A stretch of DNA of 64,000 bases from NCBI RefSeq assembly GCF_048403405.1, contig NZ_CP183129.1. One strand, 5' to 3'. The translations under genes were made by a program, and so were the position numbers. The stretch is from Escherichia coli. GTDB lineage: Bacteria > Pseudomonadota > Gammaproteobacteria > Enterobacterales > Enterobacteriaceae. Below, piece by piece: positions 44,532 through 64,000 of this stretch (the stretch's first letter is position 1; the number at the start of each line of letters is the position of its first letter). The notes under the pieces are model-generated. The model worked only from the letters and a program-made list of their open reading frames with translations. It was not told where the DNA came from and ran no database searches.

Positions 44532-44547
44532 AGAATAAAAATAATTA

Positions 44548-46702: not shown

Positions 46703-46744
46703 ACAAGACGTTTATTGTCGGAAATGCACCCATAGTATTCGTCG

Positions 46745-46777: not shown

Positions 46778-46807
46778 AATGTGCTTCAACTAGCGATGGA
46801 GCACTTC

Positions 46808-47167: not shown

Positions 47168-47187
47168 TGTTCTTCCTTTAATGCGAA

Positions 47188-48651
47188 TTACATCTTGGTA
47201 TAAGGCTTAAAGCGTTCCTGCAGTTGGCGCAACTGGTCGATGCGCGCATCGTAACGCGCTTGTTGCAGGCTGCCTAATTTCACCTGAGAACTGGCGCTAC
47301 TCAACAAGGAAATGGCCTGATCGAGTCGCCCGGCGAGCGCATAACCTTCTGCTCGCGCAGCCAGTTCCTGATCGCGGTTATTTAGCGCGGCCTCCGCCTG
47401 TGCCAGTAAATCCCAGCCATTGCTGTCATCTTTATTATTAAATGTGTAGCGATTCAGAATATTGGCCGCTTCTTGTGGTTGGCCGCCTTGCAGATAAGCG
47501 TTCGCCAGGTTGAGCTGCAACACCGGATTGGTGCGCAAATCACGGGCATTTTTCAGGCGATTGATAGCGTCATTGGCTTTGTTTTGCCCAAGATCGATAT
47601 CGGTAGCCAGATCGAGATACCATGCGTTGCCAGGTTCTGCCGCCAGTAACGGTTGCAGCGTTTTACGCGCCTCGTCGTATTTATTGGCTTCCATCGCCTG
47701 TAAAGCACGACCATATTGTGCTGCTCGTTCCTGACGAACGTTTCCTTTCGCCCATTCATCCAGCAAATCACTGGTGAGCTGGTTACGTCCGGAATTATAC
47801 ATCCCCAGTGTGCGCGCTTTCGCCAGATAGAAATCTTCCGACGACTGCACCACCATCGGGCGCATCTGATTAGCACGGTTGCGGGCATCTGCCAGACGAC
47901 TTTCCGGCAATGGGTGAGTCAATAAAATTTCCGGCGGACGCGAGGAGTAACGCGCCTGATCGAGCAATTTTTCGAGGAAGGTCGGCATCGCCTGCGGATC
48001 GAATCCCGAGCGTTGCAGCACCTGAATACCAATGCGGTCCGCTTCCTGTTCATTTTGCTGGGTGAAACTGATCATCCCCTGGCGCGTTCCCGCCAGTGTA
48101 CCGGTCAGCGCCGCCATCCCCGCCTGCGGACTGGCCATCGCCAGTAAAATAGAACCTAACGCGCCGACCCAGGTCAGCGGCGCGCTGCGTTGTTGATCTT
48201 CCATCGCTCGCGCCAGGTGACGTTGGGTGACGTGGGAGATTTCGTGCGCCATAACTGAAGCCAGTTGACTTTCGTTATCGGAATAACGGAACAGGGCAGA
48301 GTGCAGCACCACGTTGCCGCCAAAGAAAGCAAAGGCGTTAATTTCGTCGTTGTTGATCAGAAAAAAATGAAACGGTGTCTTAACCGAATTGGCATGCGAA
48401 ACCAGACGCATCCCCAGCGAATTAATATATTGCGTTAACAGCGGGTCATTAATTAACGGCGCGCTGCCGCGTAGCTGGCGGACATAATAGTCGCCCATCT
48501 GCATTTCCTGACCAATGGAAAGCGTGCTTCCTGCGGAGGTTCCCATATCCGGCAAGGTGTCTGCGCTGTCGGCAAACGCCGGGGCTACCTGACCAATGGT
48601 CATGGCAGCAATGAGGGTTGCAACCAGGTTTTTTTTCAACTGCCTGAACAT
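47188..48651 (-). CDS. bepA: Periplasmic beta-barrel assembly-enhancing protease BepA (M48 metalloprotease with TPR domain)
   Basis: 487 aa, signal peptide, [10 protein letters not shown] zinc motif, C-terminal TPR-like repeats. Confidence 0.9.
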
Positions 48652-48863
48652 AACCTCTATCCTGTATTTCTGGAGATAGTCATTTGACCGATACTGTGAA
48701 ATATCGTTCCCACCGCGCCGCCTTTGAGTGTAACGGCGAAGATTAGCCCACTCAAATGACTTTTCAGTTTCCTGAATCCGTCATAAAAAGCGAAGTCTTT
48801 TTTGTGACATTTCGATACAATTGCGGATCGCAATCCCGCTCTTGAGGTTCAGGGAAGGTCTTT

Positions 48864-49925
48864 ATGCTCGAAATGTTGATGCAATGGTATCGCCGCCGTT
48901 TTAGCGACCCGGAAGCGATTGCCTTGCTGGTTATTTTAGTTGCCGGATTTGGCATTATCTTTTTCTTTAGTGGCCTGCTTGCTCCGTTGCTGGTGGCTAT
49001 TGTGCTGGCCTATTTGCTGGAATGGCCAACCGTGCGCCTGCAATCTATTGGCTGCTCCCGCCGCTGGGCGACGTCGATTGTATTGGTGGTTTTCGTCGGT
49101 ATATTGCTACTGATGGCGTTCGTGGTACTGCCTATCGCCTGGCAGCAGGGCATCTACTTAATCCGCGATATGCCGGGGATGCTCAATAAGCTTTCTGACT
49201 TTGCCGCCACGTTGCCGCGCCGCTATCCGGCGTTGATGGATGCGGGCATTATTGATGCAATGGCAGAAAATATGCGTAGTCGGATGCTGACCATGGGCGA
49301 TTCGGTGGTGAAAATTTCCCTCGCCTCGCTGGTCGGTTTGCTGACCATAGCCGTCTATCTGGTGCTGGTGCCATTGATGGTCTTCTTCCTGCTGAAAGAC
49401 AAAGAGCAGATGCTGAACGCCGTTCGTCGGGTGCTACCGCGTAACCGCGGACTGGCAGGACAGGTGTGGAAGGAGATGAATCAACAAATCACCAACTATA
49501 TCCGCGGCAAAGTGCTGGAGATGATCGTGGTGGGGATCGCCACCTGGCTGGGATTCTTACTCTTCGGGCTGAACTATTCGCTGCTGCTGGCTGTGCTGGT
49601 CGGTTTCTCGGTTCTTATTCCGTACATTGGCGCATTTGTGGTGACCATTCCGGTGGTTGGCGTGGCGCTATTCCAGTTTGGTGCTGGCACGGAATTCTGG
49701 AGCTGCTTCGCGGTGTATCTGATCATTCAGGCGCTGGACGGCAACCTGTTAGTACCTGTGTTGTTCTCCGAAGCGGTTAATCTGCATCCGCTGGTCATTA
49801 TTTTATCAGTAGTGATCTTCGGTGGTTTGTGGGGATTCTGGGGCGTATTCTTCGCCATTCCATTGGCGACGCTGATCAAAGCCGTGATTCACGCCTGGCC
49901 CGATGGGCAAATCGCGCAAGAATAA
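48864..49925 (+). CDS. perM: Putative permease PerM (AI-2E/UPF0118 family transporter)
   Basis: 353-aa multi-TM protein; synteny with bepA and focB. Confidence 0.85.
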   Translation: MLEMLMQWYRRRFSDPEAIALLVILVAGFGIIFFFSGLLAPLLVAIVLAYLLEWPTVRLQSIGCSRRWATSIVLVVFVGILLLMAFVVLPIAWQQGIYLIRDMPGMLNKLSDFAATLPRRYPALMDAGIIDAMAENMRSRMLTMGDSVVKISLASLVGLLTIAVYLVLVPLMVFFLLKDKEQMLNAVRRVLPRNRGLAGQVWKEMNQQITNYIRGKVLEMIVVGIATWLGFLLFGLNYSLLLAVLVGFSVLIPYIGAFVVTIPVVGVALFQFGAGTEFWSCFAVYLIIQALDGNLLVPVLFSEAVNLHPLVIILSVVIFGGLWGFWGVFFAIPLATLIKAVIHAWPDGQIAQE

Positions 49926-49961
49926 TCTTCAGCCCGACGAACTGTTTCGCCGGGCTGATTT

Positions 49962-50810
49962 TTAGGGTTCCTGACGTAAATAAATAGCCCGATAACAAAT
50001 ACTCACCAGCACTGCACCGCCGATAATATTACCCAGCATCACCGGGAGCAGATTGGCGGTAATAAAATGGCTGACCGTCAGTACCGGAAAATTGTCTGCG
50101 CTACTGTGCGCCAGTTGCCAGAAGGAGGTAGGGGCGAAATGGCGAATGGCAATGGCGAACGGAATCACAAACAAATTGGCGATACAGTGCTCAAAACCAC
50201 TGGCGACAAACAGGGTGATGGGCAAAATCATGGCGACGATTTTGTCGCATAACGAACGTCCGCAATAACTCATCCATAGCGCCAGACAAACCATCAGATT
50301 GCACATAATGCCGAGGCTGACTGATTCAGTAAATGTATGATGCATTTTGCCCTCGGCGCAGTGTAAAACCGCGACTCCCCACATCGCGTTTTCACTCATC
50401 ACCAGCCCGGAAAACCAGATTAACAAACTGAAACAGGCAATACCTGCCAGATTACCGCAGGCCACCAGAAGTGCATTAATCAGCCATGTTCGCCAGCTAA
50501 TAACGCCCCGACTTTTTGCCATCACCGTCATTACCGACGAGGTGAACAGGCTGGTGCCGCAAACCGCTAGCAAAATAAAGCCGAGTGTAAAGCAAAAACC
50601 GCCCACCAGATGGGTTAATGCCTGTGAAGACGGGGCATCGGCGATAACGGTAAGGTAAAAAGTAAATCCGATCGCCATAAACACGCCTGCGGACATCGCC
50701 ATTAAAAAGACCGACACTTTGCTGCGGGCAATTTTATGGGCGGCAATCCGTTCAGCGATTGCCGCTTTTCTGGCGCTCAACTGCAAGTCGAAAGAGAGTT
50801 TGTTTCTCAT
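49962..50810 (-). CDS. focB: Formate channel FocB (FNT family)
   Basis: 282-aa FNT-type membrane protein upstream-adjacent to hyfR. Confidence 0.85.
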   Translation of the reverse strand: MRNKLSFDLQLSARKAAIAERIAAHKIARSKVSVFLMAMSAGVFMAIGFTFYLTVIADAPSSQALTHLVGGFCFTLGFILLAVCGTSLFTSSVMTVMAKSRGVISWRTWLINALLVACGNLAGIACFSLLIWFSGLVMSENAMWGVAVLHCAEGKMHHTFTESVSLGIMCNLMVCLALWMSYCGRSLCDKIVAMILPITLFVASGFEHCIANLFVIPFAIAIRHFAPTSFWQLAHSSADNFPVLTVSHFITANLLPVMLGNIIGGAVLVSICYRAIYLRQEP

Positions 50811-50831
50811 GAATACTCCTGCAAAAGCAGA

Positions 50832-52844
50832 TTACAACACCTCGCGAACCGAGATCCCCAGACGCTGCATTCGTGACAGCAGCGTGGTGCGCTTCATCCC
50901 TAATCGTGTCGCCGCGCCACGGGGCCCGGCAACAATGCCATTGGTTTCTCGCAATACCTGAACAATGCGCTGACGTTCTTCTTCGTCATTCTCTGGCGTC
51001 ATCGGGTGCAGCAACTGCGCCATTGAACTGCGAAGCGCTGAATCTTCATTTAGCGTCGGCAGTAAACGGCTTTGTCGGACATTAAGATGTAAATTCAGAC
51101 TGTTACCACGAGTCAACAGTACCGCCCGCTCAATCACGTTTTCCAGCTCGCGCACGTTGCCCGGCCAGTCCCACGACATCAACTGGCGTAGTGCCTCGGT
51201 CGGGATGGCGTCAATTGCGCGATTCATATGGCGCGCCATTTTTTGCGTGAAATGCTTTGCTAAAAGAGGGATATCTTCCGGACGGTCGCGCAGTGGCGGC
51301 AGTTCCAGTGGGAAGACATTCAGGCGATAAAAGAGATCGCTGCGAAACTGGCGATCTTCAACCATTTGCCACAAATCACGGTTGGTGGCGGCAATGACTC
51401 TGACATTTACCGGGATCGTTCTACTCCCGCCGAGACGCTCAATCTCCCGTTCCTGCAATACGCGCAGCAGTTTAGGCTGAAGTTCTAACGGCAGATCGCC
51501 AATTTCATCGAGAAACAACGTGCCGCCATCGGCAATTTCAAAACGACCACGATGGGTATTAATCGCACCAGTAAATGCCCCTTTGTCATGACCGAATAAC
51601 TCACTTTCCAGAAGACTGGCGGGGATGGCAGCGCAGTTGATTTTGACCAGTGGCTTGTCGCGTCGTGGGCTAAGTTGATGGATCGCTCTGGCGATCACCT
51701 CTTTGCCGGTTCCGGTTTCACCACAAATCAACACCGTACTGTCGCTCTTCGCCACAATATCTACCTGCTGGAGCAAATCTTCCATTGCCTGGCTTTGATA
51801 GATAATGTCACCGACGCCCAGATTCGAAAGGAGCTGCTCGCTAAGCTGGTGGTTTTCTTGCTGCAAGCTTTCCTGCAAATCGGTCATGCTGCGCCAGGCA
51901 TCGGCATTGCCAACGGCAATAGCGATGCGATCGGCAATATGTTGTAGTAGCTGGCAGTTTTCCTCACTAAAGAGAGTGGAAGAGGTATGCGCCAGCAACA
52001 ATGCGCCCGGTGTATGGTTGCCAAAGGTGAGCGGTATAAGGAGCGCAGATTCGCAGCCGTTAGATGCAAGTAAGTGTAATAACGGGTCGCGTTGCCAGAG
52101 AAACAGATCGTCTGCACGGTGCGTCAAGGTCGGTTGTCGGGTTTGTAGCGTTTGTGTCAGCAATACACTTTCGCCAGGCATACAGCGTGGCAGACACGCA
52201 CAATGTGAGGCAGAAAGATCGCTGCACCACAGGCTGAACTTCTCGTTCTTTCGATGATCGCCCAGTACCATACTGACTGAAGCCAGACCGAAAAAATGAT
52301 GGATCTCACGAGCGACGTCTGCGATCAGATCGTCGAGATCAAGATGTGACAACACTGCATTAGTGATATCCACCAGTACCCGATGATGATCGCGATCTTT
52401 CTCCAGCAAACGCAGCGCCACCTGCTGTTCTTCATCATTGAGCCATGATTGCAGAACCGGAGTGATTATGTGTGCCAGCCAGTTAAACAGTGTGCAATCC
52501 TGGGGAGTAAAACGACTGCCGTGGGTGCGAATAAAGCGTAGCTCCGCCATTCCACTACTGCCGAGAAGGACGGCGTGGCGCGAATAATCGACCATCTCAC
52601 CCTGATACTCTGTTGTTGCCGTCACATCGCTGCCATCATCATGGTAGCGGTAATAGAAGTTGCTTTTGAGAACATGCAGTTCAATAAGTTGTACCGGGCT
52701 GAACGGCGGCGGCAGCGGGATGAAGGCGCGTAATAAAGACGCCTTGCCGTGTTTCTGCGCTAACCGCTCCGCGAGCATTCCGTTTACCGCTTCAATTGTT
52801 ATTCCTTGCGGCGGGGCAAACATCGCCTCGTCTGACATAGCCAT
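50832..52844 (-). CDS. hyfR: Sigma54-dependent transcriptional activator HyfR (FhlA-like)
   Basis: 670 aa from the second Met; AAA+ sigma54-interaction domain (GETGTGKE...GAFTGA...) and C-terminal HTH. Confidence 0.9.
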
Positions 52845-52873
52845 CAACAGTCCTTATTAATGAGAAATCCTTC

Positions 52874-53287
52874 TCACGCAATTTTTCTGGCCATCAGATA
52901 GATGGCCGGTTCCTGCACAATTTCATCCAACAGATGAATGAATTGAATGCTACGCGCCTGCCACGCCGACTTCGCGTCATCTGCCAGTGGCGCGAATGCC
53001 TGGGTCAACAGGGCGGTGTGGCTGGCGTCAATAACAATCTCACCAAAGGTCATCACCCCCAGCATCTTACGTCGGGCTTGCTCCTCTTCGACCTGTGCAA
53101 GCCAATCTTCGTATTCCGTCTGTGGGCAGCGGAAGGCGACATTCAAACAATCAATCACGCCAACGTGATGACCGATAGCCAACGAGTAATACATTACCTG
53201 GGAGCTGTGTTCCGGCATCTCGTCGCTACTGGCGATAAATTTTTTTCGCAGCGTCCAGAAAACAATTTCCCCGCACGCCTCAGCCAT
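52874..53287 (-). CDS. hyfJ: Hydrogenase 4 maturation/processing protein HyfJ
   Basis: 137 aa; size and synteny. Confidence 0.8.
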
Positions 53288-54038
53288 GTAACCCCCGGAG
53301 AACGCGAAAGAGTTGCTGAACGATACTATTGAGACGCGGATCGTCAGCTTCGCGCAACCAGGTGTTAACCCGATTTCCTGTAGGATCGTCGCTTAAATGG
53401 CGCAGGAGCCGATCGCAAATTTCTCGCCCCTGACGATAGCCCGCCAGCCGCCTCGCTTCTCGCTCAATGGCGATACGCTGTGATGGCGGGATTTGCGGCC
53501 ACAGCGGTTGCATGGTCACTCCGGTGGGATCGCGATAATCCACCGCGTGAATCTTCTGTTGCAGCAAACCGAGCGCCACGGCGAAACCGTGAATGGTGGC
53601 GGCCGGTGTTGGCGGGCAGCCGGGGATCCAAACATCAATGGGGACAATGGTGTCGCTGCCGCCCCAGACGCTGTAGAGATCGTGGAAAATACCGCCGCCG
53701 ACACCGCACGCGCCGTAGGAAACACAGATTTTATGATCGGGGGCAGACTCATACGCCCGAAGTGCAGGCATACGCATCGCCCGGGTGACTGCGCCAGTAA
53801 ATAACAAAATATCGGCGTGACGCGGTGATGAAACAACCTTAATGCCAAAACGTTCTGCGTCGAATACTGGTGTGATGGCGGCAAAAATTTCGATTTCGCA
53901 GGCGTTGCAGCCGCCGCAATCGACGCGATAAACGTAGGCCGAGCGACGGATATCCTGTAACAAATGCTGCTTCATCTTTTGCGTTTGCTCGTCCAGCGTG
54001 ATGGGCTGGCTGACATGTTGCGTAAGCACTGGACTCAT
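53280..54038 (-). CDS. hyfI: Hydrogenase 4 small subunit HyfI (NuoB-like)
   Basis: 252 aa with conserved Cys pattern of NuoB-like Fe-S subunits. Confidence 0.85.
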
Positions 54039-54580
54039 AGCTGCTCCTTAGCCACCAGCGGTTCATCTGTGTCGTCGTTGATCAGCGTCGCGCGTTGTTT
54101 GCATTCCGGGCAGACGCTCGCTTGCGCCCGTAACATTTCGCGGTTTTGTGGCGCATTTTGTTGCTGTGCCAACAGTTCTGCAGCCAGTGCGACGGTTTTT
54201 TGCGGGGCAAACGGGCGTTCGCAACGGCTGCAACGTTGTAGATGGAACGTCGCGCGGGTATAGAGATCGGCTTTATTGGTGACGGTCAGTTCAAAGTTAT
54301 TGGTAAGCTGAATGGCTCTGGTCGGGCACACTTCTTCACAACGTCCGCAGTAAATACAACGCCCCAGATAGAGCTGCCAGGTGCGCGAATTTTGCTGGTC
54401 GTCGGTCTGGATAGTCAGCGCATTTGCCGGACAAGCACAGGCGCAGGCACCGCAGGCAATACATTGGCTGGGCATCAGGTCCGGTTTCCCGCGAAAGCCT
54501 GGGCTGACTTCCAGTGGTGCGAAGGGATATTTCACCGTCGCGGTTCCGGCGCGCATAATAGTTTTCAGTAACTTCAGCAT
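54035..54580 (-). CDS. hyfH: Hydrogenase 4 Fe-S subunit HyfH (2x 4Fe-4S ferredoxin)
   Basis: 181 aa with two CxxCxxCxxxCP motifs. Confidence 0.85.
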
Positions 54581-54589
54581 CTTCTGTCC

Positions 54590-56305
54590 TTACTTCAGCG
54601 GCGAACGGTTACGATCAATGCCGTAGCGTTCGATCTCTTTATACGGCACGGTTTTTGACTGGCGCTTGCGCACATCAACCAGCGTCACACGGTCGGTACA
54701 GGAGTAGCAGGGATCAAGGCTACCGATAATCAGCGGTGCGTCAGAAACGGTATTGCCGCGCAGCATGTAACGCAGCACTGGCCAGTTGGCGTAGGTGGCG
54801 GCACGACAGCGCCAGCGGAACAATTTTTGGTTATCACCGAGCATGCTCCAGTGCACGTCTTCACCGCGTGGCGCTTCAACAAAGCCCAGCGCGAATGCGT
54901 GAGGTTTATAGCTAAAGCCTTCGGTCAGCAGTGGGGTATCCGGCATGTTGTCGAGGGCAAATTCCAGCATTGCCAGCGAATCAAACGTCTCTTTGACACG
55001 GACCATCACGCGGGAGAAGACATCGCCGCCGGTAAAGGTAAACAGCGTTTTTGGAATATTGCCGTAGTCGGCGTAGGGGTGATCAAAGCGCAAATCACGG
55101 GCAAAGCCACTGCCGCGGATCAGCGGCCCTACGGGGCTATAATCACGGGCGATTTGTCGGTCGAGAATGCCAATGCCCTGAGTGCGTTGTTCCATATTTG
55201 GCGTGGCAAGCAGCATCTCTACCAGCTCCGACACGTCGGCGCGCATCTCACGCACCAGTTTCAGCGTTTGCAGACGTTGCTCTTTGAGAATATCGCGGCG
55301 AACACCACCAATCAGATTCAGACCGTAGGTTTTACGCGACCCGGTCAGCAGTTCCGCCATCGTCATCGACTTTTCCCGCACGCGGAAAAATTGCATAAAG
55401 CCGGTATCAAAACCAACAAAATGGCAGGAGAGGCCAAGGTTGAGCAAATGACTATGCAGCCGTTCGACTTCCAGCAGAATCGAGCGAATAGTATGCGCTC
55501 GTTGCGGCACCTCAATCCCCAGTGCATTTTCAACCGAGTTGGTATAGGCCACACTGTGGGCAAAACCGCAAATCCCACACACGCGGTCGGATAAGAAGGT
55601 CACTTCGTTGTAGCCCATCCGCGTTTCTGCCAGTTTCTCCATGCCGCGATGGACATAAAACAGGCGGTAATCAGCATCGACAATTTGCTCGCCATCCACA
55701 AACAAGCGGAAGTGACCTGGTTCATCGGAGGTGATATGCAGCGGGCCGACAGGGATCACCCGCGCGTCGCTGTTGCCCTCGTTGATAAACGGATACGTTT
55801 CGGTATCAGTCGTCGGTTCAGGGCGCAGTCGATAATCCATCGCATCTTTGCGCAGCGGATGCATATCTTCCGGCCAGTCATCGGGCAACACCAGGCGACG
55901 CTGATCCGGCAGGCCAACCGGAATCAGCCCGTACATATCGCGAATTTCTCGCTCGCCCCAGACCGCGGCAGGGACGCGCGGTGTGACTGACGGAAACTCC
56001 CGACTGTCGGCATCGACCAGTGCCTTCACCACGATCCAGCATTTTTCAGCCCCTTCCATTGAAAGGGCATAATAAACCGCGTAATGACCGTTAAGTGTCC
56101 GCTCGTCGTTGCCAAACAGGACCGGAAGCCAGCCATCATGTTGATAATAAAGATAATGTACAACGTCAGGCAGCAGATTGATTTTCACCGTAATGGTGAC
56201 CTGTTCAGGCGTTTGTCGCTCTTCATCCAGCACCGCGCCGGGGAACTGCGTTTTCAGGGCGGCGAGAATCGCTTCGCCACGATTTGACGATGAATTAACG
56301 TTCAC
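54590..56305 (-). CDS. hyfG: Hydrogenase 4 large catalytic subunit HyfG (NuoCD-like NiFe subunit); start codon uncertain
   Basis: GTG at 56305 preceded by GGAGA; C-terminal DPCYSC Ni-binding motif; K-12 annotation is shorter, so the true start may be further downstream. Confidence 0.8.
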
Positions 56306-57875
56306 TGTGTTTCTCCGAAACAGATGCGGTGCCTGAAGGCAAAAAATCATGCCAGGTGCTACGTTGTGCAGGCAGGTCGTGCGTCCCTGAGAGGACTATA
56401 GTGGAAGCGCCCGCCAGGATCCTGATGACAGGTTGTGGAATATGCGTTCCCATCGCCAGCATCATGACCAGCAGAATCACCATTGGCGAGGTGGTCAACC
56501 AGCCAAGTTCACCCCGGTTAACGGCCTGCGGCGGTTTCGCCATTAACACCCGCGCAGCCATCCGTACCAGGCCCGCCAGCACCAGCGTTAACAGCAATAA
56601 CAGCAGGACGATAATCAGCAGGTGATTACGTGCCAGTCCGGCGGTAACGGTCATAAATTCGCTAAGAAAAATGTTGAAGGGCGGCATCCCTGCCAACGCC
56701 AGCGCACCGCCGCCAAACAGCACGGCGGTAAATGGCATGATTTTAAGCATTCCGCAGACGACGTTGAGATCGCGCGTGCCGTACTTGAGCAGTACATTGC
56801 CGGAACCGCAGAACAGCAGCGTTTTTGCCAGACTGTGGTTTAAGGTGTGCAGCAGCGCAGCAAAAATTCCCAGCGGCCCGCCAATGCCTAGCGCCACCGC
56901 GACCAGTCCCATGTTCTCCACGCTGGAGTACGCCAGCAGACGCTTAATGTCCCGCTGTACCAGAATGAAAAATGCCGCCACGGCAACCGACAACATGCCG
57001 AAGATGAGCAACAACCGGTTGGGGAAATCGCTGCCGATGGCCTGGCAGATAATGATGTAATAGCGAATCAGCACCAACAGCGCGCAGTTCAGCAATACGG
57101 CGGAGAGCAGGGCGCTGACCGGACTCGGCGCTTCACTGTGAGCATCCGGCAGCCAGGCGTGCATGGGAAATAGCCCGGTTTTGGTGCCAAAGCCAATTAG
57201 CACAAACACAAAGGCCAACAGCATTAATGTTGGGTCAAGCAAGGACGATTGCTTAAGAACCTCGCTCCAGAATATCGCCATTTCTGCCTGCGGCATAACG
57301 CTGGCGGCGTTGGCGTATACCAGCACGGTACCGAACAGACCAAAAGCGACACCAACAGTACAAATAATGATGTACTTCCATGCAGCTTCCAGCGATGAAC
57401 GCTGACCGTAAATGCCTACCAGAAACGCCGAGCTTAAGGTGGTGGCTTCGATCGCCGCCCACATCACAATCAGGTTATTGCTGGTAACAACCAGCAGCAT
57501 GGTGAACAAAAACAGATGGAAGAAACCGTAGTAATCGCACAGCGTAACGGGTGAAAGCTCGCCGTGCTCCACTTCATGACGCATGTAGCCAATCGAGTAA
57601 ACACCGGTGAGAAAGCCAATCACACCAAGAATGGCGAGGAACAAACCGCCCAGACCATCAATATGAAGCCACAGTCCCGCAGCGAATATTTCTCCCGCAT
57701 CAGCGGCAGTTTGGACCACCCACAGTGCCAGAATCAGCAGCAGTGTGATCCCTAAGCTATGTAGTACTGTCACCGTGCGAGTCGCAGAGTGCCCCTGTTT
57801 CCGGCAGGCAAAACAGAGCAGTGAAAAAAGCAGCGGCGTGAGCAGGAGTAAAGCGAACATCACAGAATAACTCAT
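56295..57875 (-). CDS. hyfF: Hydrogenase 4 membrane subunit HyfF (NuoL/M/N antiporter-like)
   Basis: 526 aa multi-TM. Confidence 0.85.
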
Positions 57876-57879
57876 CTCA

Positions 57880-58530
57880 TTATCCCTTCAGCGCGGTCAA
57901 GTTGTTCACGTCCAGCGTGCCGTGGGTACGCCATATTTTTCTTGCCAGTAACACCATTACAATGACGGCGAAGATGGCGTCGGTAGCGATACCAATTTCC
58001 ACCAGTTCCGGTGCACGCCAGGCAAGAAGCGCCAGCACCAGATGGGAGCCGTTTTCCATCAGGCAGTAACCAAAAATTTGCCGCAGGATATTGCGCTGGC
58101 TGACAATGCACAGCAGGCCAAGCAGAAAATGACCTAACGCCACCGCCAGCGCCGGTTTCAGCCCGGTAGCCATCGGTAGCTTCACGGGCTGAACGACAAA
58201 TGCGCAAAGCAGGACAATTAATGCCGCGAGCAATGCCATCATTGCCGGACCGAATAACGCTTTTTCCGGGATGTTCTGGGGAATATTTCGTGCAGCGTAA
58301 ATCATGATTAACGGTACCAGCAGCACTTTGGTGATAAAGGCGCTGGCGGACCAGATCAGCAGTTGCTCTGCGACGAACAGGCACGAGAGGGTGGCGAAAA
58401 TAGACACCAGCACCAGCGACTGGCAGGCGTAAAATCCGCATGACAGGCGATAGCTTTTGACACTAATCACAAACAGCGATGTCAGCATCATCAGTCCCGC
58501 CAGATTATTTACGATCATAGAACCGGTCAT
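57880..58530 (-). CDS. hyfE: Hydrogenase 4 membrane subunit HyfE
   Basis: 216 aa multi-TM. Confidence 0.85.
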
Positions 58531-58541
58531 TCATCATCTCC

Positions 58542-59981
58542 TTACTGCAACCAGGTCGCGGCGATTACGCTGGAAATCAGCGACATCACAATCAGTACAA
58601 TCAACACCAGGCGCATTGACCCTGGCAGCGGTGCGGCATCGGCGACGGCCTCGCTCGGTTTGCCAGGCACAACGCGACCAAACCAGCGAATAAACCAGGC
58701 GAAACTGGCGACCGATTCAATCATCAGCAGAATCATGGCGGGCAGCAGGATCCAGTACTCCACTGACAACGCAAAACCGGCAGCAAACAGCGGGAATTTA
58801 CTGAAGAAGCCGTTGAATGGCGGCACGCCGGTAATTGCCAGCGCTGCCACGCAGAAACCCACGCCAGGCAACGGCAGGGTGTGCAATACGCCACGCAGAC
58901 GCGGCAACAAGCGCGTGCCGCAGCTGTAACTCAGCGCACCTGCTACAAGGAAAAATAGGCTTTTAGCGAACGCGTGGTTGACGATGTAGGCGATGCTGCC
59001 CTCCAGTGCCAGCCGCGAGCCGAAGATGGAGAGCGACAAGCCGAAGAACATCCAGCCAAGTTGAGTGATGGTCGACCAGGCCAGCAACCGCTTCATATCC
59101 TGCTGTGGCAAATACATCAGGAAGCCGTAAAGAATGGTGACCAGTGCCATGACCATGCCAACGCCGCCAATCACATGCGGGATATTGCCGCCGTCGATAA
59201 TGGCGCGGGCAAAAATGTAAACGCCCACTTTCACCATCGATGCGGCGTGGAGATAGGCGCTGATCGGTGTTGGCGCTTCCATTGCATCCGGTAGCCACGC
59301 TTGCATCGGTAGCTGGGCCGATTTCCCCCACGCGGCAAACAGGATGCCGCCATAAACCAGATAACGTGCATCGCCGTGTAACTCGTTCATCGCGCTAAGC
59401 GCAAACGTTCCGGTCTGCAAAAACAGCGTGGCGGCGGCAAGATACAACCCCAACGAACCGATATGGGTAATAAGCAACGCTTTTAGTGCCGAACGCTGCG
59501 CTTTATCGCTCTGGTAATAACTGATCAACGCCCAGGAGCAGCCGCCCGTAATTTCAAAAAACAACAACTGACCGAGCAGCGTCGAAGAGAGTACCAGTCC
59601 CGCCATCGCGCCGATAAACAGCAGCAAAAATGCGTAATAACGATTCGTGCCGTTATGCGGGTGTTCGCGATTTTTATCCGTCAGATAACCCGTGGAGTAG
59701 ATCGTGACCAGCAAACCGAGAAACACCACCACAAACAGAATCAGCGTACTCACGCGATCAATGACCAGGCCAAACAACGCCACATCCCCCACGTTGACCA
59801 ACGTCAACGTGACGGCAACTTTATCGGCCTGATAAAACGCGGAGATCAGCGACAACATGCACAGCGTGGTCAGCGCGGCGAACAAAATCCCCCATTCGGC
59901 GGCCCGACGTTGTGGCGAAAACGAAACGACCAGTGCGCCGATAAAAGGCAGCAATAACGTCGTCAGAGCAAGATTTTCCAT
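58542..59981 (-). CDS. hyfD: Hydrogenase 4 membrane subunit HyfD (antiporter-like)
   Basis: 479 aa multi-TM. Confidence 0.85.
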   Translation of the reverse strand: MENLALTTLLLPFIGALVVSFSPQRRAAEWGILFAALTTLCMLSLISAFYQADKVAVTLTLVNVGDVALFGLVIDRVSTLILFVVVFLGLLVTIYSTGYLTDKNREHPHNGTNRYYAFLLLFIGAMAGLVLSSTLLGQLLFFEITGGCSWALISYYQSDKAQRSALKALLITHIGSLGLYLAAATLFLQTGTFALSAMNELHGDARYLVYGGILFAAWGKSAQLPMQAWLPDAMEAPTPISAYLHAASMVKVGVYIFARAIIDGGNIPHVIGGVGMVMALVTILYGFLMYLPQQDMKRLLAWSTITQLGWMFFGLSLSIFGSRLALEGSIAYIVNHAFAKSLFFLVAGALSYSCGTRLLPRLRGVLHTLPLPGVGFCVAALAITGVPPFNGFFSKFPLFAAGFALSVEYWILLPAMILLMIESVASFAWFIRWFGRVVPGKPSEAVADAAPLPGSMRLVLIVLIVMSLISSVIAATWLQ

Positions 59982-59997
59982 ATTTCGTCAGTGCTCC

Positions 59998-60945
59998 TTA
60001 CAGACCGGTTAACCAGAAGACCCATGCAAGCGCAGCAAGGCTGAAGCCAAGCCAGGTCACATGGTGAATGAGTAAAAAACGCCCGCGTGCCAGCGTGTTT
60101 TCTGCGATTGAGGCCAGTACAAAAATCAGCAAAACCTTGAGCAGCGTAACGACAAGTGAAGTCAGCAGGCAGGCGAGAGAAAGTTCTTGCGCGCGCCCAA
60201 AGGGCAGAAACAGGGCCACAAACAGTGCTGCCATCACGACCTGTTTCAGCCCCAGCCCCAACTTCGCCAACGCCAGCCCGGCACCGGAATATTCGGTCAG
60301 CGGGCCTTCCTGTAATTCCTGTTCTGCTTCAGCAACATCAAAGGGAATTTTTCCCATCTCAATGAAGCAGGCAAAACCACAGGCCAGTAACGCCAGTACG
60401 GTGGTTAGCGGCGAGTTCCAGCCCGTCGCCAGCGTCTTGCTGATCATCTCGATATGCGTGGAATCCGCTATCAGCGCCAATACCAGCAGTGAGAGAAGGA
60501 GCATGGGTTCGACCAGAATGCCGAGCGTCAACTCGCGACTGGCACCGACTCCCGCAAAGGGGCTTCCGGTATCCAGCCCGGAAAGAGCAAAGAAAAAACG
60601 AAACAGGGCAAGAAGATAGATAAGGGTGATCAGATCGCCGCCGCCCGCAAAAGGGGAAACGGTAATAAATAGTGGCAGGGCCATCGCCAGCACCAGCATG
60701 CTGCTGATTAATACCCACGGCATCAGGCGGAACATCAGACCTGAAGATGTCGGCGCAACTTCCTGGCGTTTAAACAGTTTGTGGATATCGCGATAATCCT
60801 GCCAGATCCCCGGTCCGCGACGGGAGTGCATTCGCGCGCGTATCTGCCGGGAAATCCCCGTAAAAAGCGGGGTTAGCACCAGCAGAGTCACGGCCTGTGC
60901 TAACGCAAAAATGATCAGATATCCGTCGCAAAGAGTTTGTCTCAT
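59998..60945 (-). CDS. hyfC: Hydrogenase 4 membrane subunit HyfC (NuoH-like)
   Basis: 315 aa from MRQTLCDGYL... (track ORF starts 7 codons upstream). Confidence 0.85.
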   Translation of the reverse strand: MRQTLCDGYLIIFALAQAVTLLVLTPLFTGISRQIRARMHSRRGPGIWQDYRDIHKLFKRQEVAPTSSGLMFRLMPWVLISSMLVLAMALPLFITVSPFAGGGDLITLIYLLALFRFFFALSGLDTGSPFAGVGASRELTLGILVEPMLLLSLLVLALIADSTHIEMISKTLATGWNSPLTTVLALLACGFACFIEMGKIPFDVAEAEQELQEGPLTEYSGAGLALAKLGLGLKQVVMAALFVALFLPFGRAQELSLACLLTSLVVTLLKVLLIFVLASIAENTLARGRFLLIHHVTWLGFSLAALAWVFWLTGL

Positions 60946-60955
60946 GGTGATTTCC

Positions 60956-62974
60956 TTAGACGGCAATAGCGATTAGCAGCACAACCAGTGCGGCGACCAC
61001 ATACAGGCAATAGAGACGAAAGTCGCCGCTTTGCAGATGCTGTATTTCTTTGGCCAGCCGTTGGGTGGCGCTCACGATGGGGCGGATCACCCGCTCATCC
61101 CAGAAGGGTTCTGTGCTCTGAGCCCTGGCGGTGACATGCGCAAGACCTTTGTTCAGCCTCAGCGTAGGGTCGAGCTGTTGTCGTAGACGAAATAGCGCAC
61201 AAAAGACCACACGCAGCGGTTGCATCACGCCATTGCCTGACGGGGCCATCGCATTATCCCAGCCGTAGCCGCATGCCCAGGCATCTCCTGTGCGACGAAA
61301 CGCTGCGCGGCGCGAACGACACCACAGCCAGTAAAGGCCAGGCAGCAAAGGCATCGCCAGTAGTAACAGCAACAGTAATGAGGGAGTGACCCGTGTATGA
61401 AACGTGCCTGGTACAAGTGCTATTCCGCTGGCGACAGTGACGGGAGGGGTATTGGTAAACGCATGGGCAATGTGCATTATCTTCGGTGCCAGCCAACTGG
61501 CACTAAGCGCAATGAATATGCAGAGTGCCGCGAGCAGTAGCATGGCGACGATCATCGTATTCGGCACTTCCTGTGCCTCTTCAGCGTGTGTACTGCGCGG
61601 CGCTCCACAGAAAGTAATACCGTACATTTTGACGAAGCACATTACTGCCAGCCCACCAGTGACTGCCAGCATCACCATAGCAATAGGACCCGCAAGTTGT
61701 AGCGCTACGGCTTCCACACGACTTAGTGAGAACAGCGACTGCCAGGTGTACCATTCGCTGATAAAACCATTCAGCGGAGGAATGGCTGATATCGCGAGGC
61801 AACCAATCAGGCATGCTGCGGCTGTCCACGGCATCCGTTTTGCCAGTGCCCCCATTTTTTCCATGTCGTGGGTATGCAAACGCGAAATAATCGCACCCGC
61901 GCCGAGAAACAGCAGCCCTTTGAACAGCGCATGGTTGAGCAGATGAAACAGCGCGCCGAGCAGTCCAACAACGGTGAGCAGCGGGTCGTGCAGTGACAGA
62001 CCGACCATCGCCACACCGACCGCCAGCAAAATAATGCCGACGTTTTCGACGGTACTCCAGGCCAGCAGCCGTTTGATATCCTGTTCCGCCAGCGCATACA
62101 GCACGCCCAGGAGCGCGGAGATTGCGCCGATCGCCATCACCAGAATGCCCCACCACAGCGGCAAACCCGTTTGCGCCAGCAGGTCCATCGCTACTTTCAG
62201 GATGCCGAAAATACCGATTTTGACCATTACGCCAGACATCAACGCCGAAGCGTGCGATGGTGCGGCAGGGTGAGCGCGTGGCAACCAGCTGTGCAACGGC
62301 ATCATCCCGGCTTTCGCGCCAAAACCAAAGAAGGCCATCAGGAACACCGCCGACGCCAGCCCCGGAGAAAGTGAAAGCGTGCGGAAACTGGCAAAATCGA
62401 GGCTGCCGCTTTCGCGCCCCATCAGCAAGAAGGCGATCATAATCAGTACCGATCCGGCGTGGGCGATAAAAAAGTAGAGCATGCCAGCGTTGATTGACGT
62501 TTTATCCTGCCTGGCAATGACCAGAAACCAGGAAGACAGCGACATCATTTCAAACAGCACGATGAACCAAAAAGCGTTGTCCATCACCAGCAGGGCAACC
62601 ATCGATGCGATGAAAAGATTCATAAAGAAGCCCATCGCCGCCGCGCCTTTGCCCTCGTATTCGCGCATATAAGTCAATGAATAGAGCGAACAAACCACCA
62701 CCAGCAAGGAGATAACCAGCACCATAAATGCCGAGAGGCTATCCATTCGCAGGGTTAAATCGGCAAAGTCAAAAGGCGTGGCAAAACGGGCGACTAAAAT
62801 TACGCCTGCATGTAATTGCGTAATTCCGCTGATGATGCCAATCACGCCACCCACCAGCGATGTGATGCCGGAAAGCTTAATAGCCAGTCTGTCCAGACCG
62901 AGTAAAAACAGCGAAGCCAGACTGGCAAACAGATAGAGGATCAGCGACCAGGTTAATAATTGCAGGGCATCCAT
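60956..62974 (-). CDS. hyfB: Hydrogenase 4 membrane subunit HyfB (antiporter-like)
   Basis: 672 aa multi-TM. Confidence 0.85.
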   Translation of the reverse strand: MDALQLLTWSLILYLFASLASLFLLGLDRLAIKLSGITSLVGGVIGIISGITQLHAGVILVARFATPFDFADLTLRMDSLSAFMVLVISLLVVVCSLYSLTYMREYEGKGAAAMGFFMNLFIASMVALLVMDNAFWFIVLFEMMSLSSWFLVIARQDKTSINAGMLYFFIAHAGSVLIMIAFLLMGRESGSLDFASFRTLSLSPGLASAVFLMAFFGFGAKAGMMPLHSWLPRAHPAAPSHASALMSGVMVKIGIFGILKVAMDLLAQTGLPLWWGILVMAIGAISALLGVLYALAEQDIKRLLAWSTVENVGIILLAVGVAMVGLSLHDPLLTVVGLLGALFHLLNHALFKGLLFLGAGAIISRLHTHDMEKMGALAKRMPWTAAACLIGCLAISAIPPLNGFISEWYTWQSLFSLSRVEAVALQLAGPIAMVMLAVTGGLAVMCFVKMYGITFCGAPRSTHAEEAQEVPNTMIVAMLLLAALCIFIALSASWLAPKIMHIAHAFTNTPPVTVASGIALVPGTFHTRVTPSLLLLLLLAMPLLPGLYWLWCRSRRAAFRRTGDAWACGYGWDNAMAPSGNGVMQPLRVVFCALFRLRQQLDPTLRLNKGLAHVTARAQSTEPFWDERVIRPIVSATQRLAKEIQHLQSGDFRLYCLYVVAALVVLLIAIAV

Positions 62975-63591
62975 TAGCGTTGCTCCTGAGTGAGGGAAAG
63001 GGGATCCTCCCCGCCATTGGCAAACCAGCTTGCGGCAAGGCGCTGTTTTTCTTTCATCTGACGTTGCAGGCTATCGTCGGTGATCAGCCGTAACGCCTGA
63101 TTCGGGCAAGCGCGAACGCAGGCCGGACCTTCTGGCAAGAAATCACACAGGTCGCATTTCACCGCGACGGTCTGGACACCCGGTTCCCAGCGCAGCAAAG
63201 CATGTTGGGTCGGCGCGTTTTCTTCGCCGTCTTTGAGTGAGCCGTCAGCCTGAAAAACATATTGCGCAGGGGCATTCACCGGACGGCTTCCTGAAGCGCT
63301 GATTGCGCCAAATGGGCAGACCACGGCGCAAAGCTTGCAACCAATACAAAGGCTTTCGTTGAGTTGGATCGCATCATCCCTCTGGGAAATGGCATTGACC
63401 AGGCAGACCTGCAGGCAAGGGGCTTCCTCACAGTGATGACACACGACAGGGGCAGTGAGTGTTGACGTCTTCGCCAGGGCCAGGCGCGGGTGTTGCTGTA
63501 AACCTTGCGTTTTATGCACGTCCGAACAGGCAGCGAGACAGGTATTACATCCTGTACACCACAGTGGTTCGGCCACCACAAAGCGGTTCAT
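62974..63591 (-). CDS. hyfA: Hydrogenase 4 Fe-S subunit HyfA (4x 4Fe-4S ferredoxin)
   Basis: 205 aa from MNRFVVAEPLWCTGCNTCLAAC...; multiple CxxCxxCxxxCP motifs. Confidence 0.9.
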   Translation of the reverse strand: MNRFVVAEPLWCTGCNTCLAACSDVHKTQGLQQHPRLALAKTSTLTAPVVCHHCEEAPCLQVCLVNAISQRDDAIQLNESLCIGCKLCAVVCPFGAISASGSRPVNAPAQYVFQADGSLKDGEENAPTQHALLRWEPGVQTVAVKCDLCDFLPEGPACVRACPNQALRLITDDSLQRQMKEKQRLAASWFANGGEDPLSLTQEQR

Positions 63592-63632
63592 GTCGGCTCC
63601 TTGAAAATGATATGAAACATTGCATTTCATAT

Positions 63633-63648
63633 TGCATAAAGGATGCCA
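63633..63648 (-). promoter_or_regulatory. Sigma54 (-24/-12) promoter of the hyf operon
   Basis: Minus-strand TGGCAT-N7-TGCA with GG and GC spaced one helical turn apart, ~45 nt upstream of hyfA; fits a HyfR/FhlA-activated sigma54 operon. Confidence 0.6.
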
Positions 63649-63843
63649 GTCTTATTAATTTAATATATTCAATAAGTTATGAATTAACTGGATTCTGAAC
63701 GGTACAAAAATGATGGTCATTAACGTTCAGCAAAAAATGGATTCGACACCCGTGTCGCAGGGGAACGCGAGAATGTGATCTTGATCACGAGAAGTGAGGT
63801 GTGCTGGCCGCAAGCGCAGCCAGCACGGAATGGAGCAAAGTAA

Positions 63844-64000
63844 TCAGGCGTGTTCTTTCAGCCAGTTCAGCACAACGTCGTGGTGATTGCTGGTTTTAAA
63901 ATCGTCAAAGACATGTTCGATTTTGCCATCAGCGTCAATCAGGAAGCTGATGCGATGAATACCATCGTAGGTTTTGCCCATGAAGGACTTTTCACCCCAG
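63844..64000 (-). CDS. bcp: Thiol peroxidase Bcp (peroxiredoxin), 3' fragment; 5' end beyond the window
   Basis: Minus-strand translation ...GEKSFMGKTYDGIHRISFLIDADGKIEHVFDDFKTSNHHDVVLNWLKEHA-stop; K-12 neighbour of hyfA. Confidence 0.85.
   Translation of the reverse strand, partial: WGEKSFMGKTYDGIHRISFLIDADGKIEHVFDDFKTSNHHDVVLNWLKEHA

What the first reader, a model, noticed from the sequence alone, without database searches (positions are those of the whole stretch)
63633..63648. Sigma54 promoter preceding hyfA
A minus-strand TGGCAT-N7-TGCA element with correct GG/GC spacing lies ~45 nt upstream of hyfA, consistent with HyfR/FhlA-dependent sigma54 transcription of the hydrogenase-4 operon. 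The whole hyf operon and hyfR appear intact.
Basis: partly seen in the sequence, partly recalled or inferred. Interest (0 to 1): 0.15.

Follow-up and report, generated by a model that had tools for sequence, protein, structure and literature searches.

The report
Known sigma-54 promoter of hyf operon
The flagged motif is the already characterised sigma-54 promoter of the E. coli hydrogenase-4 (hyf) operon, so the call is correct but ordinary; the more interesting by-product is that this strain has a full-length hyfG gene, while K-12 has a 48-bp in-frame deletion in it.

Summary
The element is real. On the minus strand, 63648..63633 reads TGGCATCCTTTATGCA. The spacer is N6, not N7, but the GG/GC spacing is canonical. 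It ends 41 nt before the hyfA ATG (63591).

The window is E. coli. K-12 MG1655 has the same 16-mer and identical DNA down to hyfA. This exact sequence is sigma-54 ChIP-seq site OS23 in K-12 (Bonocora 2015), with a predicted start 31 nt upstream of hyfA and EcoCyc status "experimentally confirmed". The bcp-hyfA spacer also holds one of the strongest RpoN-holoenzyme gSELEX peaks (Shimada 2021).

The motif alone is not beyond chance: about one equal-scoring hit is expected per 64 kb. Context makes the case:
- It is the top PSSM hit in the window.
- It is intergenic and correctly oriented.
- The 57 nt from the motif to the ATG are identical in 3734 of 4297 hyf-carrying E. coli genomes.
- A -24/-12 element sits 38-136 nt upstream of hyfA homologues (30 of 31 within 83 nt) in 31 of 43 loci from other genera.

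Conserved upstream blocks fit a TGTCGA-type activator site, an IHF site and a CRP site. All 12 hyf/focB genes are intact, and HyfR has a sigma-54 activator domain.

Verdict: already known, low interest.

In passing: hyfG here is 571 aa. K-12-type strains lack 16 conserved residues.

The parts
63633..63649 (-). Sigma-54 -24/-12 promoter element CTGGCATCCTTTATGCA. GG is at 63647-63646 (-25/-24) and GC at 63635-63634 (-13/-12).
   Evidence: Sequence read, pattern match. Top PSSM hit of the window at 15.05 bits. The 16-mer is identical to K-12 and to ChIP-seq site OS23. 85% identity across Citrobacter and Kosakonia, against 38% for the rest of the spacer.
63621..63622 (-). Predicted transcription start, 12 nt downstream of the GC and 30-31 nt upstream of the hyfA ATG.
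   Evidence: Bonocora's rule (start = motif centre + 19) gives 31 nt to hyfA for the identical K-12 sequence. Not measured in this strain.
63592..63620 (-). Short 5' UTR carrying the Shine-Dalgarno AAGGAG (63602..63597). No significant RNA structure.
   Evidence: Sequence. Fold z-score 0.58. The SD and ATG block is 92% conserved. No Rfam match.
63667..63679 (+). IHF-like site ATTCAATAAGTTA (WATCAANNNNTTR with 1 mismatch), centred near -51 between the activator sites and the promoter.
   Evidence: One search finds the match, but such matches are not enriched over chance in the window. 74% conserved, and a perfect consensus in Citrobacter NCU1. Function is inferred.
63704..63719 (-). Most conserved spacer block, TGACCATCATTTTTGT, centred near -90. 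Binding factor unknown. Candidate second FhlA/HyfR site.
   Evidence: 94% identity across 6 Citrobacter and Kosakonia sequences. Resembles GATGACATCGTTTTT in the E. coli hydN upstream region.
63743..63758 (-). Candidate upstream activator site for FhlA/HyfR, GCGACACGGGTGTCGA, centred near -128.
   Evidence: Conserved CGACAC...TG(T/C)CG block. TCGACA and CGACAC are the commonest 6-mers upstream of the sigma-54 element, in 27 and 25 of 32 loci. The FhlA-dependent hydN promoter has TCGTCACTAGTGTCGA. Also flagged as a weak terminator-like hairpin.
63774..63789 (-). CRP-like palindrome CGTGATCAAGATCACA (TGTGA-N6-TCACA with 1 mismatch), centred at -159.5.
   Evidence: Match (2 in the window against 2.1 expected, so not significant alone). 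The TGA...ATCACA core is invariant in the E. coli, Citrobacter and Kosakonia alignment.
63801..63826 (-). Hairpin after the bcp stop codon: GTGCTGGC-N10-GCCAGCAC. The hyf presence/absence breakpoint lies 6-11 nt downstream of it.
   Evidence: Sequence. Genomes lacking hyf keep only the first 52-57 nt of the spacer. Not conserved outside E. coli (33%).
52874..63591 (-). hyfABCDEFGHIJ, ten intact genes. hyfA is 63591..62974. hyfG is 56305..54590 and encodes 571 aa.
   Evidence: tblastn and ORF checks against K-12. HyfA Fer4 domains. HyfG aligns end to end with HycE, chain 7z0s_E.
50832..52844 (-). hyfR, an intact sigma-54 enhancer-binding protein of 670 aa.
   Evidence: 99.3% identical to K-12 HyfR. 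Pfam GAF, Sigma54_activat (251 bits), AAA_lid_14 and HTH_8.
49962..50810 (-). focB, an intact formate channel gene and the last gene of the cluster.

Best explanation
This is the sigma-54 (RpoN) promoter of the E. coli hydrogenase-4 operon, hyfAp.

Proposed mechanism:
1. RNA polymerase carrying sigma-54 binds the GG (-24) and GC (-12) doublets at 63647-63634 and forms a closed complex that cannot open by itself.
2. An enhancer-binding ATPase binds upstream. This is FhlA (formate-responsive) and/or HyfR, which is encoded at the end of the same cluster. The likely sites are the TGTCGA-type element at about -128 and perhaps the invariant block at about -90.
3. DNA bending at an IHF-like site near -51 brings the activator to the polymerase.
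4. ATP hydrolysis opens the promoter. Transcription starts at about 63622, 30-31 nt before the hyfA ATG, and runs into hyfABCDEFGHIJ.
5. A conserved CRP-like site at -159.5 probably adds catabolite control.

What is shown:
- Sigma-54 occupancy on the identical K-12 sequence, in the literature.
- Conservation of the element.
- Intact operon and intact HyfR domains.

What is inferred:
- Which upstream blocks bind FhlA/HyfR, IHF and CRP.
- The start site in this particular strain.
For: - The sequence is at the stated place.
- The 16-mer and all DNA down to the hyfA ATG are identical in K-12.
- In K-12 this exact motif lies under sigma-54 ChIP-seq peak OS23 (FAT 16, PSSM 10.5, predicted start 31 bp from hyfA, EcoCyc 'confirmed'). 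The spacer is among the strongest RpoN-holoenzyme gSELEX peaks.
- It is the best sigma-54 PSSM hit in the whole window.
- No sigma-70-like promoter is found in 63500-64000.
- The 57 nt from TGGCAT to the ATG are 100% identical in 3734 of 4297 hyf-carrying E. coli genomes.
- A -24/-12 element of at least 10.9 bits ends 38-136 nt before the start codon of hyfA homologues (30 of 31 within 83 nt) in 31 of 43 loci from Citrobacter, Kosakonia, Atlantibacter, Providencia, Morganella, Dickeya, Pectobacterium and others. The spacer letters differ among them.
- The element is 85% conserved against 38% for the spacer background.
- HyfR carries a Sigma54_activat domain at 251 bits.
- TCGACA and CGACAC are the most widespread upstream 6-mers, in 27 and 25 of 32 loci. 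They match the UAS of FhlA-dependent hydN.
Against: - The motif score alone is what a random 64-kb sequence yields about once.
- It is a below-median match to known sites: 14 of 41 training sites score lower. It departs from the consensus twice, T for C after TGGCA and A for T before TGC.
- The primary papers with primer extension and activator genetics (Skibinski 2002, Self 2004) could not be opened. The mapped start and the FhlA/HyfR dependence therefore rest on secondary citation and on my recollection of the abstract.
- Nothing was measured in this strain.
- The CRP-like and IHF-like matches are not enriched over chance.
- The proposed activator site is also a weak terminator-like hairpin.
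- Published work on K-12 describes poor native hyf expression.
Confidence: 0.95

Rival explanations
1. Sigma-54 binds the site, but it is essentially non-productive in vivo (a poised or cryptic site). What hyf transcription occurs naturally comes from bcp read-through or from an unrecognised promoter.
For: Bonocora et al. stress that many sigma-54 binding sites may never give productive transcription. hyf is described as poorly expressed in K-12. No strong intrinsic terminator follows bcp: the hairpin at 63826-63801 has no T-run, and only one weak terminator-like site was found.
Against: EcoCyc lists this promoter as experimentally confirmed. The element, its distance to the start codon and the upstream blocks are conserved across genera, which a non-functional site would not predict. 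A cognate activator gene is kept intact in the cluster. No sigma-70-like promoter is present.
Confidence: 0.04
2. The motif is a chance match to the -24/-12 consensus in an AT-rich spacer and has no role.
For: About one hit of equal or better PSSM score is expected per 64 kb. Loose-consensus hits are not enriched in the window.
Against: Published sigma-54 ChIP-seq and gSELEX binding on the identical sequence. Position-specific conservation within E. coli and across genera. Correct orientation and distance to hyfA.
Confidence: 0.01
3. This rival concerns one part only. The inverted repeat CGACAC-GG-GTGTCG (63757..63744) followed by AATCCATTTTTT would be the intrinsic terminator of bcp rather than an FhlA/HyfR binding site.
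For: It is the only terminator-like site the scan finds in 63500-64000: 5-bp stem, 4-nt loop, T-rich tail. It lies 87 nt after the bcp stop codon, on the bcp strand.
Against: In Citrobacter and Kosakonia the CGACAC and TG(T/C)CG letters are kept, but the stem complementarity is weakened and the T-run is absent. The same TCGACA/CGACAC words recur upstream of the sigma-54 element in 25-27 of 32 loci whose upstream genes differ, and in the FhlA-dependent hydN and hyc-hyp regions. The two roles are not mutually exclusive in E. coli.
Confidence: 0.12

Closest known systems
E. coli K-12 hyfA promoter (hyfAp). Sigma-54 ChIP-seq site OS23 of Bonocora et al. 2015. Subject of Skibinski et al. 2002, J Bacteriol 184:6642.
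   Same: The TGGCATCCTTTATGCA core is identical, and so are all 57 nt down to the ATG. The CRP-like, UAS, -90 and IHF-like blocks are identical. Flanking genes (bcp, hyfA) and operon order are the same.
   Different: The base just 5' of the core is C here and A in K-12, which raises the PSSM score from 13.4 to 15.05 bits. There are four substitutions in the AT-rich stretch 1-12 nt 5' of the TGGCAT core (about -27 to -38) and one next to the IHF-like site. Only 28 genomes share this spacer allele at 99% or more. The operon behind it has the full-length 571-aa hyfG rather than the 555-aa K-12 allele.
Sigma-54 promoters of the E. coli formate regulon (hycA, hypA, fdhF, hydN), activated by FhlA.
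   Same: -24/-12 architecture 20-41 nt upstream of the first gene. fdhF (GTGGCATAAAAGATGCA) and hydN (CTGGCATGATTTGTGAA) share the TGGCAT variant. Upstream TGTCG/CGACA/TGACG-type repeats are present. hydN has TCGTCACTAGTGTCGA, against TCGACACCCGTGTCGC on the complementary strand here.
   Different: hyf has a single inverted CGACAC/GTGTCG pair rather than the multiple repeats seen in hyc-hyp. hyf has its own paralogous activator, HyfR, encoded in cis. The published FhlA consensus TGWC-RAWRAT-GWCA is not matched well.
hyfA-homologue promoters in Citrobacter, Kosakonia and other Enterobacterales (loci L005-L048).
   Same: A -24/-12 element at a similar distance. Citrobacter has ATGGCATCCTTTGTGCA 38-41 nt from the ATG, and Kosakonia has TTGGCACAGCTTATGCT at 42 nt. 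The order of upstream blocks is the same in Citrobacter and Kosakonia.
   Different: The spacer letters, the -12 flank and the distances (38-136 nt) vary. More distant genera share only the TGTCGA-type words and the sigma-54 element.

Membership tests
Sigma-54 (RpoN) dependent -24/-12 promoter | A GG doublet and a GC doublet separated by exactly 10 nt (TGGCAC-N5-TTGCW frame). | tested here: met
   TGGCATCCTTTATGCA has GG at 63647-46 and GC at 63635-34, with 2 mismatches to the 11 specified consensus positions, outside the doublets.
Sigma-54 (RpoN) dependent -24/-12 promoter | A score within the range of experimentally bound sites. | tested here: met
   15.05 bits on a PSSM of 41 published intergenic sites, hyfA excluded. 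Training range 9.05-21.53, median 16.18. Best hit in the window. The score alone is not beyond chance.
Sigma-54 (RpoN) dependent -24/-12 promoter | Intergenic, oriented towards a gene, with a start site a short distance upstream of it. | tested here: met
   It lies in the 252-nt bcp-hyfA spacer on the hyfA strand. The GC is 43 nt from the ATG, so a start 12 nt downstream gives a 31-nt leader.
Sigma-54 (RpoN) dependent -24/-12 promoter | Occupancy by sigma-54 holoenzyme. | not testable with these tools
   Literature on the identical K-12 sequence: ChIP-seq peak OS23 and a gSELEX peak of 92%/100%.
Sigma-54 (RpoN) dependent -24/-12 promoter | An experimentally mapped transcription start about 12 nt downstream of the GC, dependent on rpoN. 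| not testable with these tools
   The EcoCyc 'experimentally confirmed' flag is relayed by Bonocora 2015. The primary paper, Skibinski 2002, is not held. My recollection of its abstract is a primer-extension start 30 bases upstream of hyfA.
Sigma-54 (RpoN) dependent -24/-12 promoter | A cognate enhancer-binding protein (AAA+ sigma-54 interaction domain) is available. | tested here: met
   HyfR in the window has GAF + Sigma54_activat (4.7e-75) + AAA_lid_14 + HTH_8 and is full length. fhlA and rpoN lie outside the window.
Sigma-54 (RpoN) dependent -24/-12 promoter | No competing sigma-70 -35/-10 promoter. | tested here: met
   0 sigma-70-like sites in 63500-64000, against 1.0 expected.
FhlA/HyfR-activated formate-regulon promoter | An upstream activator sequence of the FhlA type about 100 bp upstream of the -24/-12 element. 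| tested here: inconclusive
   GCGACACGGGTGTCGA at about -128 is conserved. It shares TCGACA/CGACAC words with 25-27 of 32 homologous loci and with the hydN and hyc-hyp UAS. It fits the published TGWC-N6-GWCA consensus poorly. No binding data were accessible.
FhlA/HyfR-activated formate-regulon promoter | An IHF site between the UAS and the promoter. | tested here: inconclusive
   ATTCAATAAGTTA at about -51 has 1 mismatch and is conserved. Such matches are as frequent as chance in the window.
FhlA/HyfR-activated formate-regulon promoter | Induction by formate, low pH and anaerobiosis through FhlA or HyfR. | not testable with these tools
   Stated for hyf in PMC7658346, citing Skibinski 2002. 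Not measurable here.

The most novel reading that the evidence does not exclude
The promoter itself is textbook, but here it sits in front of the ancestral, full-length hyfG. K-12, on which all 'silent or inactive hydrogenase-4' work was done, carries a 48-bp in-frame deletion between two GCCCGTGATT repeats, as do about half of hyf-carrying E. coli. The deletion removes 16 residues ([16 protein letters not shown]) that include the GPxxRxSG motif conserved from HycE to the complex I 49-kDa subunit.

The reading not excluded by my evidence has two parts. First, the K-12-type allele is catalytically dead, which would explain why even T5- or hyc-promoter-driven K-12 hyf gives no H2. Second, in strains like this one the sigma-54 promoter drives a functional formate hydrogenlyase-2.

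I found no mention of this deletion in the papers I could read. It may still be noted in papers that are not held.
Probability: 0.3. Interest if true: 0.55.

Novelty: already known. Interest (0 to 1): 0.06.

Why it matters
For the promoter itself, very little. It confirms that a sequence-only reader can recognise a real sigma-54 promoter, and that this strain keeps the K-12 regulatory architecture. hyfAp is already in EcoCyc and in genome-wide sigma-54 maps.

The comparative footprint gives testable positions for the activator, IHF and CRP sites:
- CRP-like site at -159.5
- TGTCGA-type site at -128
- invariant block at -90
- IHF-like site at -51

The by-product may matter more. The hyfG 48-bp deletion in K-12-type strains offers a simple, directly testable explanation for the long-debated inactivity of E. 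coli K-12 hydrogenase-4.

Tried and rejected
**Papers that could not be opened**
- Skibinski 2002, by DOI and by PMC135417.
- Self 2004 (PMC305750).
- Reitzer & Schneider 2001 (PMC99035).
- None is held. The primer-extension start and the activator genetics are therefore cited second-hand.

**Consensus matching as evidence**
- Rejected as sufficient. The exact pattern (0.37 expected), the 2-mismatch consensus (39 against 45.9) and the PSSM (1.05 expected at or above the observed score) are all compatible with chance.
- The same holds for the CRP-like and IHF-like consensus matches.

**Alternative features tested**
- A sigma-70 promoter: none found.
- A structured leader or riboswitch: fold z-score 0.58, no Rfam hit.
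- Other strong PSSM hits inside hyfF (56815-56831) and hyfR (51007-51023) as internal sigma-54 promoters: no hyf-internal site appears in the K-12 ChIP-seq tables.
- FNR at TTAATGACCATCAT (8 of 10 matches): rejected, because the left half is not conserved in Citrobacter.
- The published FhlA consensus TGWC-RAWRAT-GWCA: no good match in the spacer by eye.

**Other dead ends**
- The genome-contig scan returned no Escherichia locus, so within-species conservation was taken from the E. coli genome collection instead.
- I assumed the window was collinear with the best-matching genome. That was wrong: only 33803-50000 aligns.
- One literature search failed on syntax.

Full report
**1. Observation**

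On the minus strand, window 63648..63633 reads TGGCATCCTTTATGCA.
It is TGGCAT-N6-TGCA, not N7.
The GG (63647-63646) and GC (63635-63634) doublets have the canonical sigma-54 spacing, the TGGCAC-N5-TTGCW frame with two mismatches.
- hyfA starts with ATG at 63591 (MNRFVVAEPLWCTGC...), so 41 nt separate the element from the start codon.
- bcp ends at 63844, which makes the element part of a 252-nt bcp-hyfA spacer.

**2. Chance**

The motif alone proves nothing.
- The exact pattern is expected 0.37 times per window.
- The 2-mismatch consensus is found 39 times against 45.9 expected.
- I built a PSSM from the 41 other 'intergenic sense' sigma-54 sites of Bonocora et al., leaving hyfA out. The site (CTGGCATCCTTTATGCA, 15.05 bits) is the single best hit among all positions on both strands. 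Composition-matched simulated windows contain on average 1.05 sites at least as good.
- The case therefore rests on location, orientation, conservation and published experiments.

**3. Identity with the known promoter**

The window is E. coli. The region matches several complete genomes at 100%, with bcp and hyfA annotated.
- K-12 MG1655 has the same 16-mer and identical DNA from it to beyond the hyfA ATG.
- Bonocora et al. 2015 (PMC4591121, Table 1) list this very sequence as ChIP-seq site OS23: motif ATGGCATCCTTTATGCA, FAT 16, + strand, downstream gene hyfA. The predicted start is 31 bp upstream, and it is marked 'C', experimentally confirmed in EcoCyc.
- Shimada et al. 2021 (PMC8743547) found the bcp/hyfA spacer among the strongest RpoN-holoenzyme gSELEX peaks. 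It reached 92% of the maximum alone and was the 100% reference peak with NtrC.
- The paper on FhlA/HyfR control and primer extension (Skibinski et al. 2002) is not held. From my own memory of its abstract, it reports a start 30 bases upstream of hyfA with appropriately placed -24/-12 boxes. That matches 63621-63622.
- PMC7658346 cites it for FhlA regulation of hyf.

**4. Conservation**

Within E. coli:
- 4297 of 5426 complete genomes carry the spacer.
- The 57 nt from TGGCAT to the base before the ATG are 100% identical in 3734 of those 4297.
- About 1127 genomes, for example ST131, keep only the first 52-57 nt after bcp and then run straight into yfgO. The whole hyf-focB cluster and its promoter are absent as a unit.

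Across species:
- A scan with HyfA gave 45 loci.
- In 31 of 43 usable loci the best PSSM hit in the 400 nt upstream scores at least 10.9 bits and ends 38-136 nt before the start codon, 30 of them within 83 nt. The spacer letters vary: Citrobacter ATGGCATCCTTTGTGCA, Kosakonia TTGGCACAGCTTATGCT, Atlantibacter CTGGCACAATTCCTGCT, Providencia CTGGCACAAAAAATGCT.
- Most of the loci without such a hit carry the HycE-type sequence variant (SNVGP...SGH), so they may be hyc-type operons in which the match is not the first gene. I did not check their gene order.
- In an alignment of E. coli, four Citrobacter and two Kosakonia spacers, the element is 85% conserved against 38% for the non-block spacer.

**5. 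Upstream architecture**

These assignments are inferred. Positions are relative to a start at 63622. The same alignment shows four further conserved islands:
- A CRP-like palindrome, CGTGATCAAGATCACA, at 63789..63774 (centre -159.5).
- CGACAC-GG-GTGTCG(A) at 63757..63743 (about -128).
- An almost invariant block, TGACCATCAYTTTTGT, at 63719..63704 (about -90, 94% identity).
- An IHF-like site at 63679..63667 (about -51).

The CRP-like and IHF-like matches are no more frequent than chance in the window, so their support is conservation only.

For the -128 element:
- Among 32 loci with a sigma-54 site, TCGACA (27 loci) and CGACAC (25 loci) are the most widespread 6-mers in the 175 nt upstream.
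- The FhlA-dependent hydN promoter of K-12 carries TCGTCACTAGTGTCGA, and hyc-hyp carries clustered TGTCG/CGACA repeats.
- This makes the -128 element the best candidate FhlA/HyfR site.
- It is also the only weak terminator-like hairpin after bcp. However, its T-run and stem are not conserved in the relatives.

The -90 block is unassigned. It resembles GATGACATCGTTTTT next to the hydN UAS.

**6. The operon and its activator**

- hyfA, B, C, D, E, F, H, I, J, hyfR and focB are intact, collinear with K-12 and of the same length. hyfG is also intact and collinear but encodes 571 aa here against 555 aa in K-12.
- HyfR has GAF, Sigma54_activat (251 bits), AAA lid and HTH_8 domains.
- No sigma-70-like promoter, no significant leader structure and no Rfam family compete with the sigma-54 reading.

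**7. Mechanism**

- RNAP-sigma-54 sits on the -24/-12 element as a closed complex. This is shown for the identical K-12 sequence.
- FhlA and/or HyfR bound upstream hydrolyse ATP to open the promoter, helped by IHF bending. This is inferred from family knowledge of enhancer-binding proteins and from the conserved blocks.
- Transcription starts at about 63622 and proceeds through hyfA-J.
- CRP probably modulates. From memory, Self et al. 2004 reported a CRP-cAMP requirement. That paper is not held.

**8. Rivals**

- A chance motif is contradicted by published occupancy and by conservation.
- A bound but unproductive site is contradicted by the EcoCyc 'confirmed' status and by cross-genus conservation. 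Native expression in K-12 is nevertheless reported as poor.
- The terminator reading applies only to the -128 inverted repeat. It is not exclusive of the activator-site reading.

**9. Verdict**

The feature is already known, so interest is low.

**10. Noticed in passing**

This is the most interesting by-product.
- HyfG here is 571 aa, and K-12 HyfG is 555 aa. K-12 lacks 48 bp lying between two copies of GCCCGTGATT (window 55150..55141 and 55102..55093). The missing residues are [16 protein letters not shown].
- The long form aligns without gaps to HycE (7z0s_E: ARDFSNVGPMVRASGH) and to complex I 49-kDa/NuoD chains (GPxLRGSGxxxDLR). It also aligns without gaps to all 40 homologues recovered from other genera. 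The short form is therefore a derived deletion of a deeply conserved segment.
- Among 5426 E. coli genomes, 2179 have the long form and about 2115 the short form, including K-12 derivatives, ATCC 8739 and an O103 strain. About 1130 have no hyfG.
- Papers I could read do not mention the deletion. Finney et al. 2020 report 15 engineered K-12 strains, including T5 and hyc promoter swaps, with no Hyd-4 H2. Lindenstrauss & Pinske 2019 report that a foreign hyf operon works in E. coli.
- A cis defect in K-12 hyfG would fit those results. This is a hypothesis, not a finding.

**11. Dead ends**

- Three primary papers are not held.
- No Escherichia locus came back from the species-representative genome scan.
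- The FNR idea for the -90 block was rejected.
- My assumption that the whole window is collinear with the best-matching genome was wrong. Window 1..~33800 carries phage-like genes (tail fibre, GH19, DUF2514) next to yfgI, probably a prophage end. Only 18 genomes share that junction.

Noticed in passing
window 55103-55150 (within hyfG, minus strand 56305..54590): hyfG here encodes 571 aa. K-12 MG1655 hyfG (555 aa) lacks 48 bp lying between two GCCCGTGATT direct repeats, which removes [16 protein letters not shown]. That segment is present without gaps in HycE (7z0s_E), in complex I 49-kDa/NuoD chains (GPxLRGSG motif) and in all 40 homologues from other genera, so the K-12-type allele is a derived deletion. 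Of the E. coli genomes, 2179 have the long form, about 2115 the short form and about 1130 no hyfG. None of the held papers I read mentions it. It could explain the inactive Hyd-4 of K-12.
   Followed up: partly
window 49930-63795 (hyf-focB cluster with its promoter): The whole 13.9-kb cluster is a presence/absence polymorphism. 4297 of 5426 complete E. coli genomes have it. About 1127 (for example ST131 O25b:H4) go from 52-57 nt after the bcp stop codon, just past the hairpin at 63826-63801, directly to yfgO.
   Followed up: partly
window 63704-63719 (minus strand): TGACCATCAYTTTTGT is the most conserved block of the spacer, at 94% across Citrobacter and Kosakonia. That is higher than the -24/-12 element itself. 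No factor is assigned. It resembles sequence next to the hydN UAS.
   Followed up: partly
window 63612-63637 (minus strand): A DNA inverted repeat, ATGAAA-TGCAATG-TTTCAT (63630..63612), straddles the predicted start site. ATGCAAT occurs twice (63637..63631 and 63625..63619). Because the transcript starts inside the repeat, no RNA hairpin can form from it. Possibly an operator, possibly nothing.
   Followed up: no
window 63649 and 63650-63685 (minus strand): This strain's spacer allele is uncommon: only 28 genomes are at least 99% identical over 255 nt. It differs from K-12 at the base 5' of TGGCAT (C instead of A, +1.7 bits on the PSSM) and at four positions in the AT-rich stretch upstream.
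   Followed up: no
window 56815-56831 and 51007-51023 (minus strand): The second- and third-best sigma-54 PSSM hits of the window lie inside hyfF (CTGGCAAAAACGCTGCT, 13.9 bits) and near the 3' end of hyfR, about 200 nt before focB (ATGGCGCAGTTGCTGCA, 13.3 bits). Both are in the sense orientation. No hyf-internal site is listed in the K-12 ChIP-seq tables.
   Followed up: partly
window 1-33802: This part is not the suhB-isc-guaBA core segment found at this position in the best-matching hyf genome. Window 29000-35000 matches phage genes (tail fibre, GH19 lysozyme, DUF2514) abutting yfgI. Only 18 of 5426 genomes share that junction. It is probably a prophage end.
   Followed up: no
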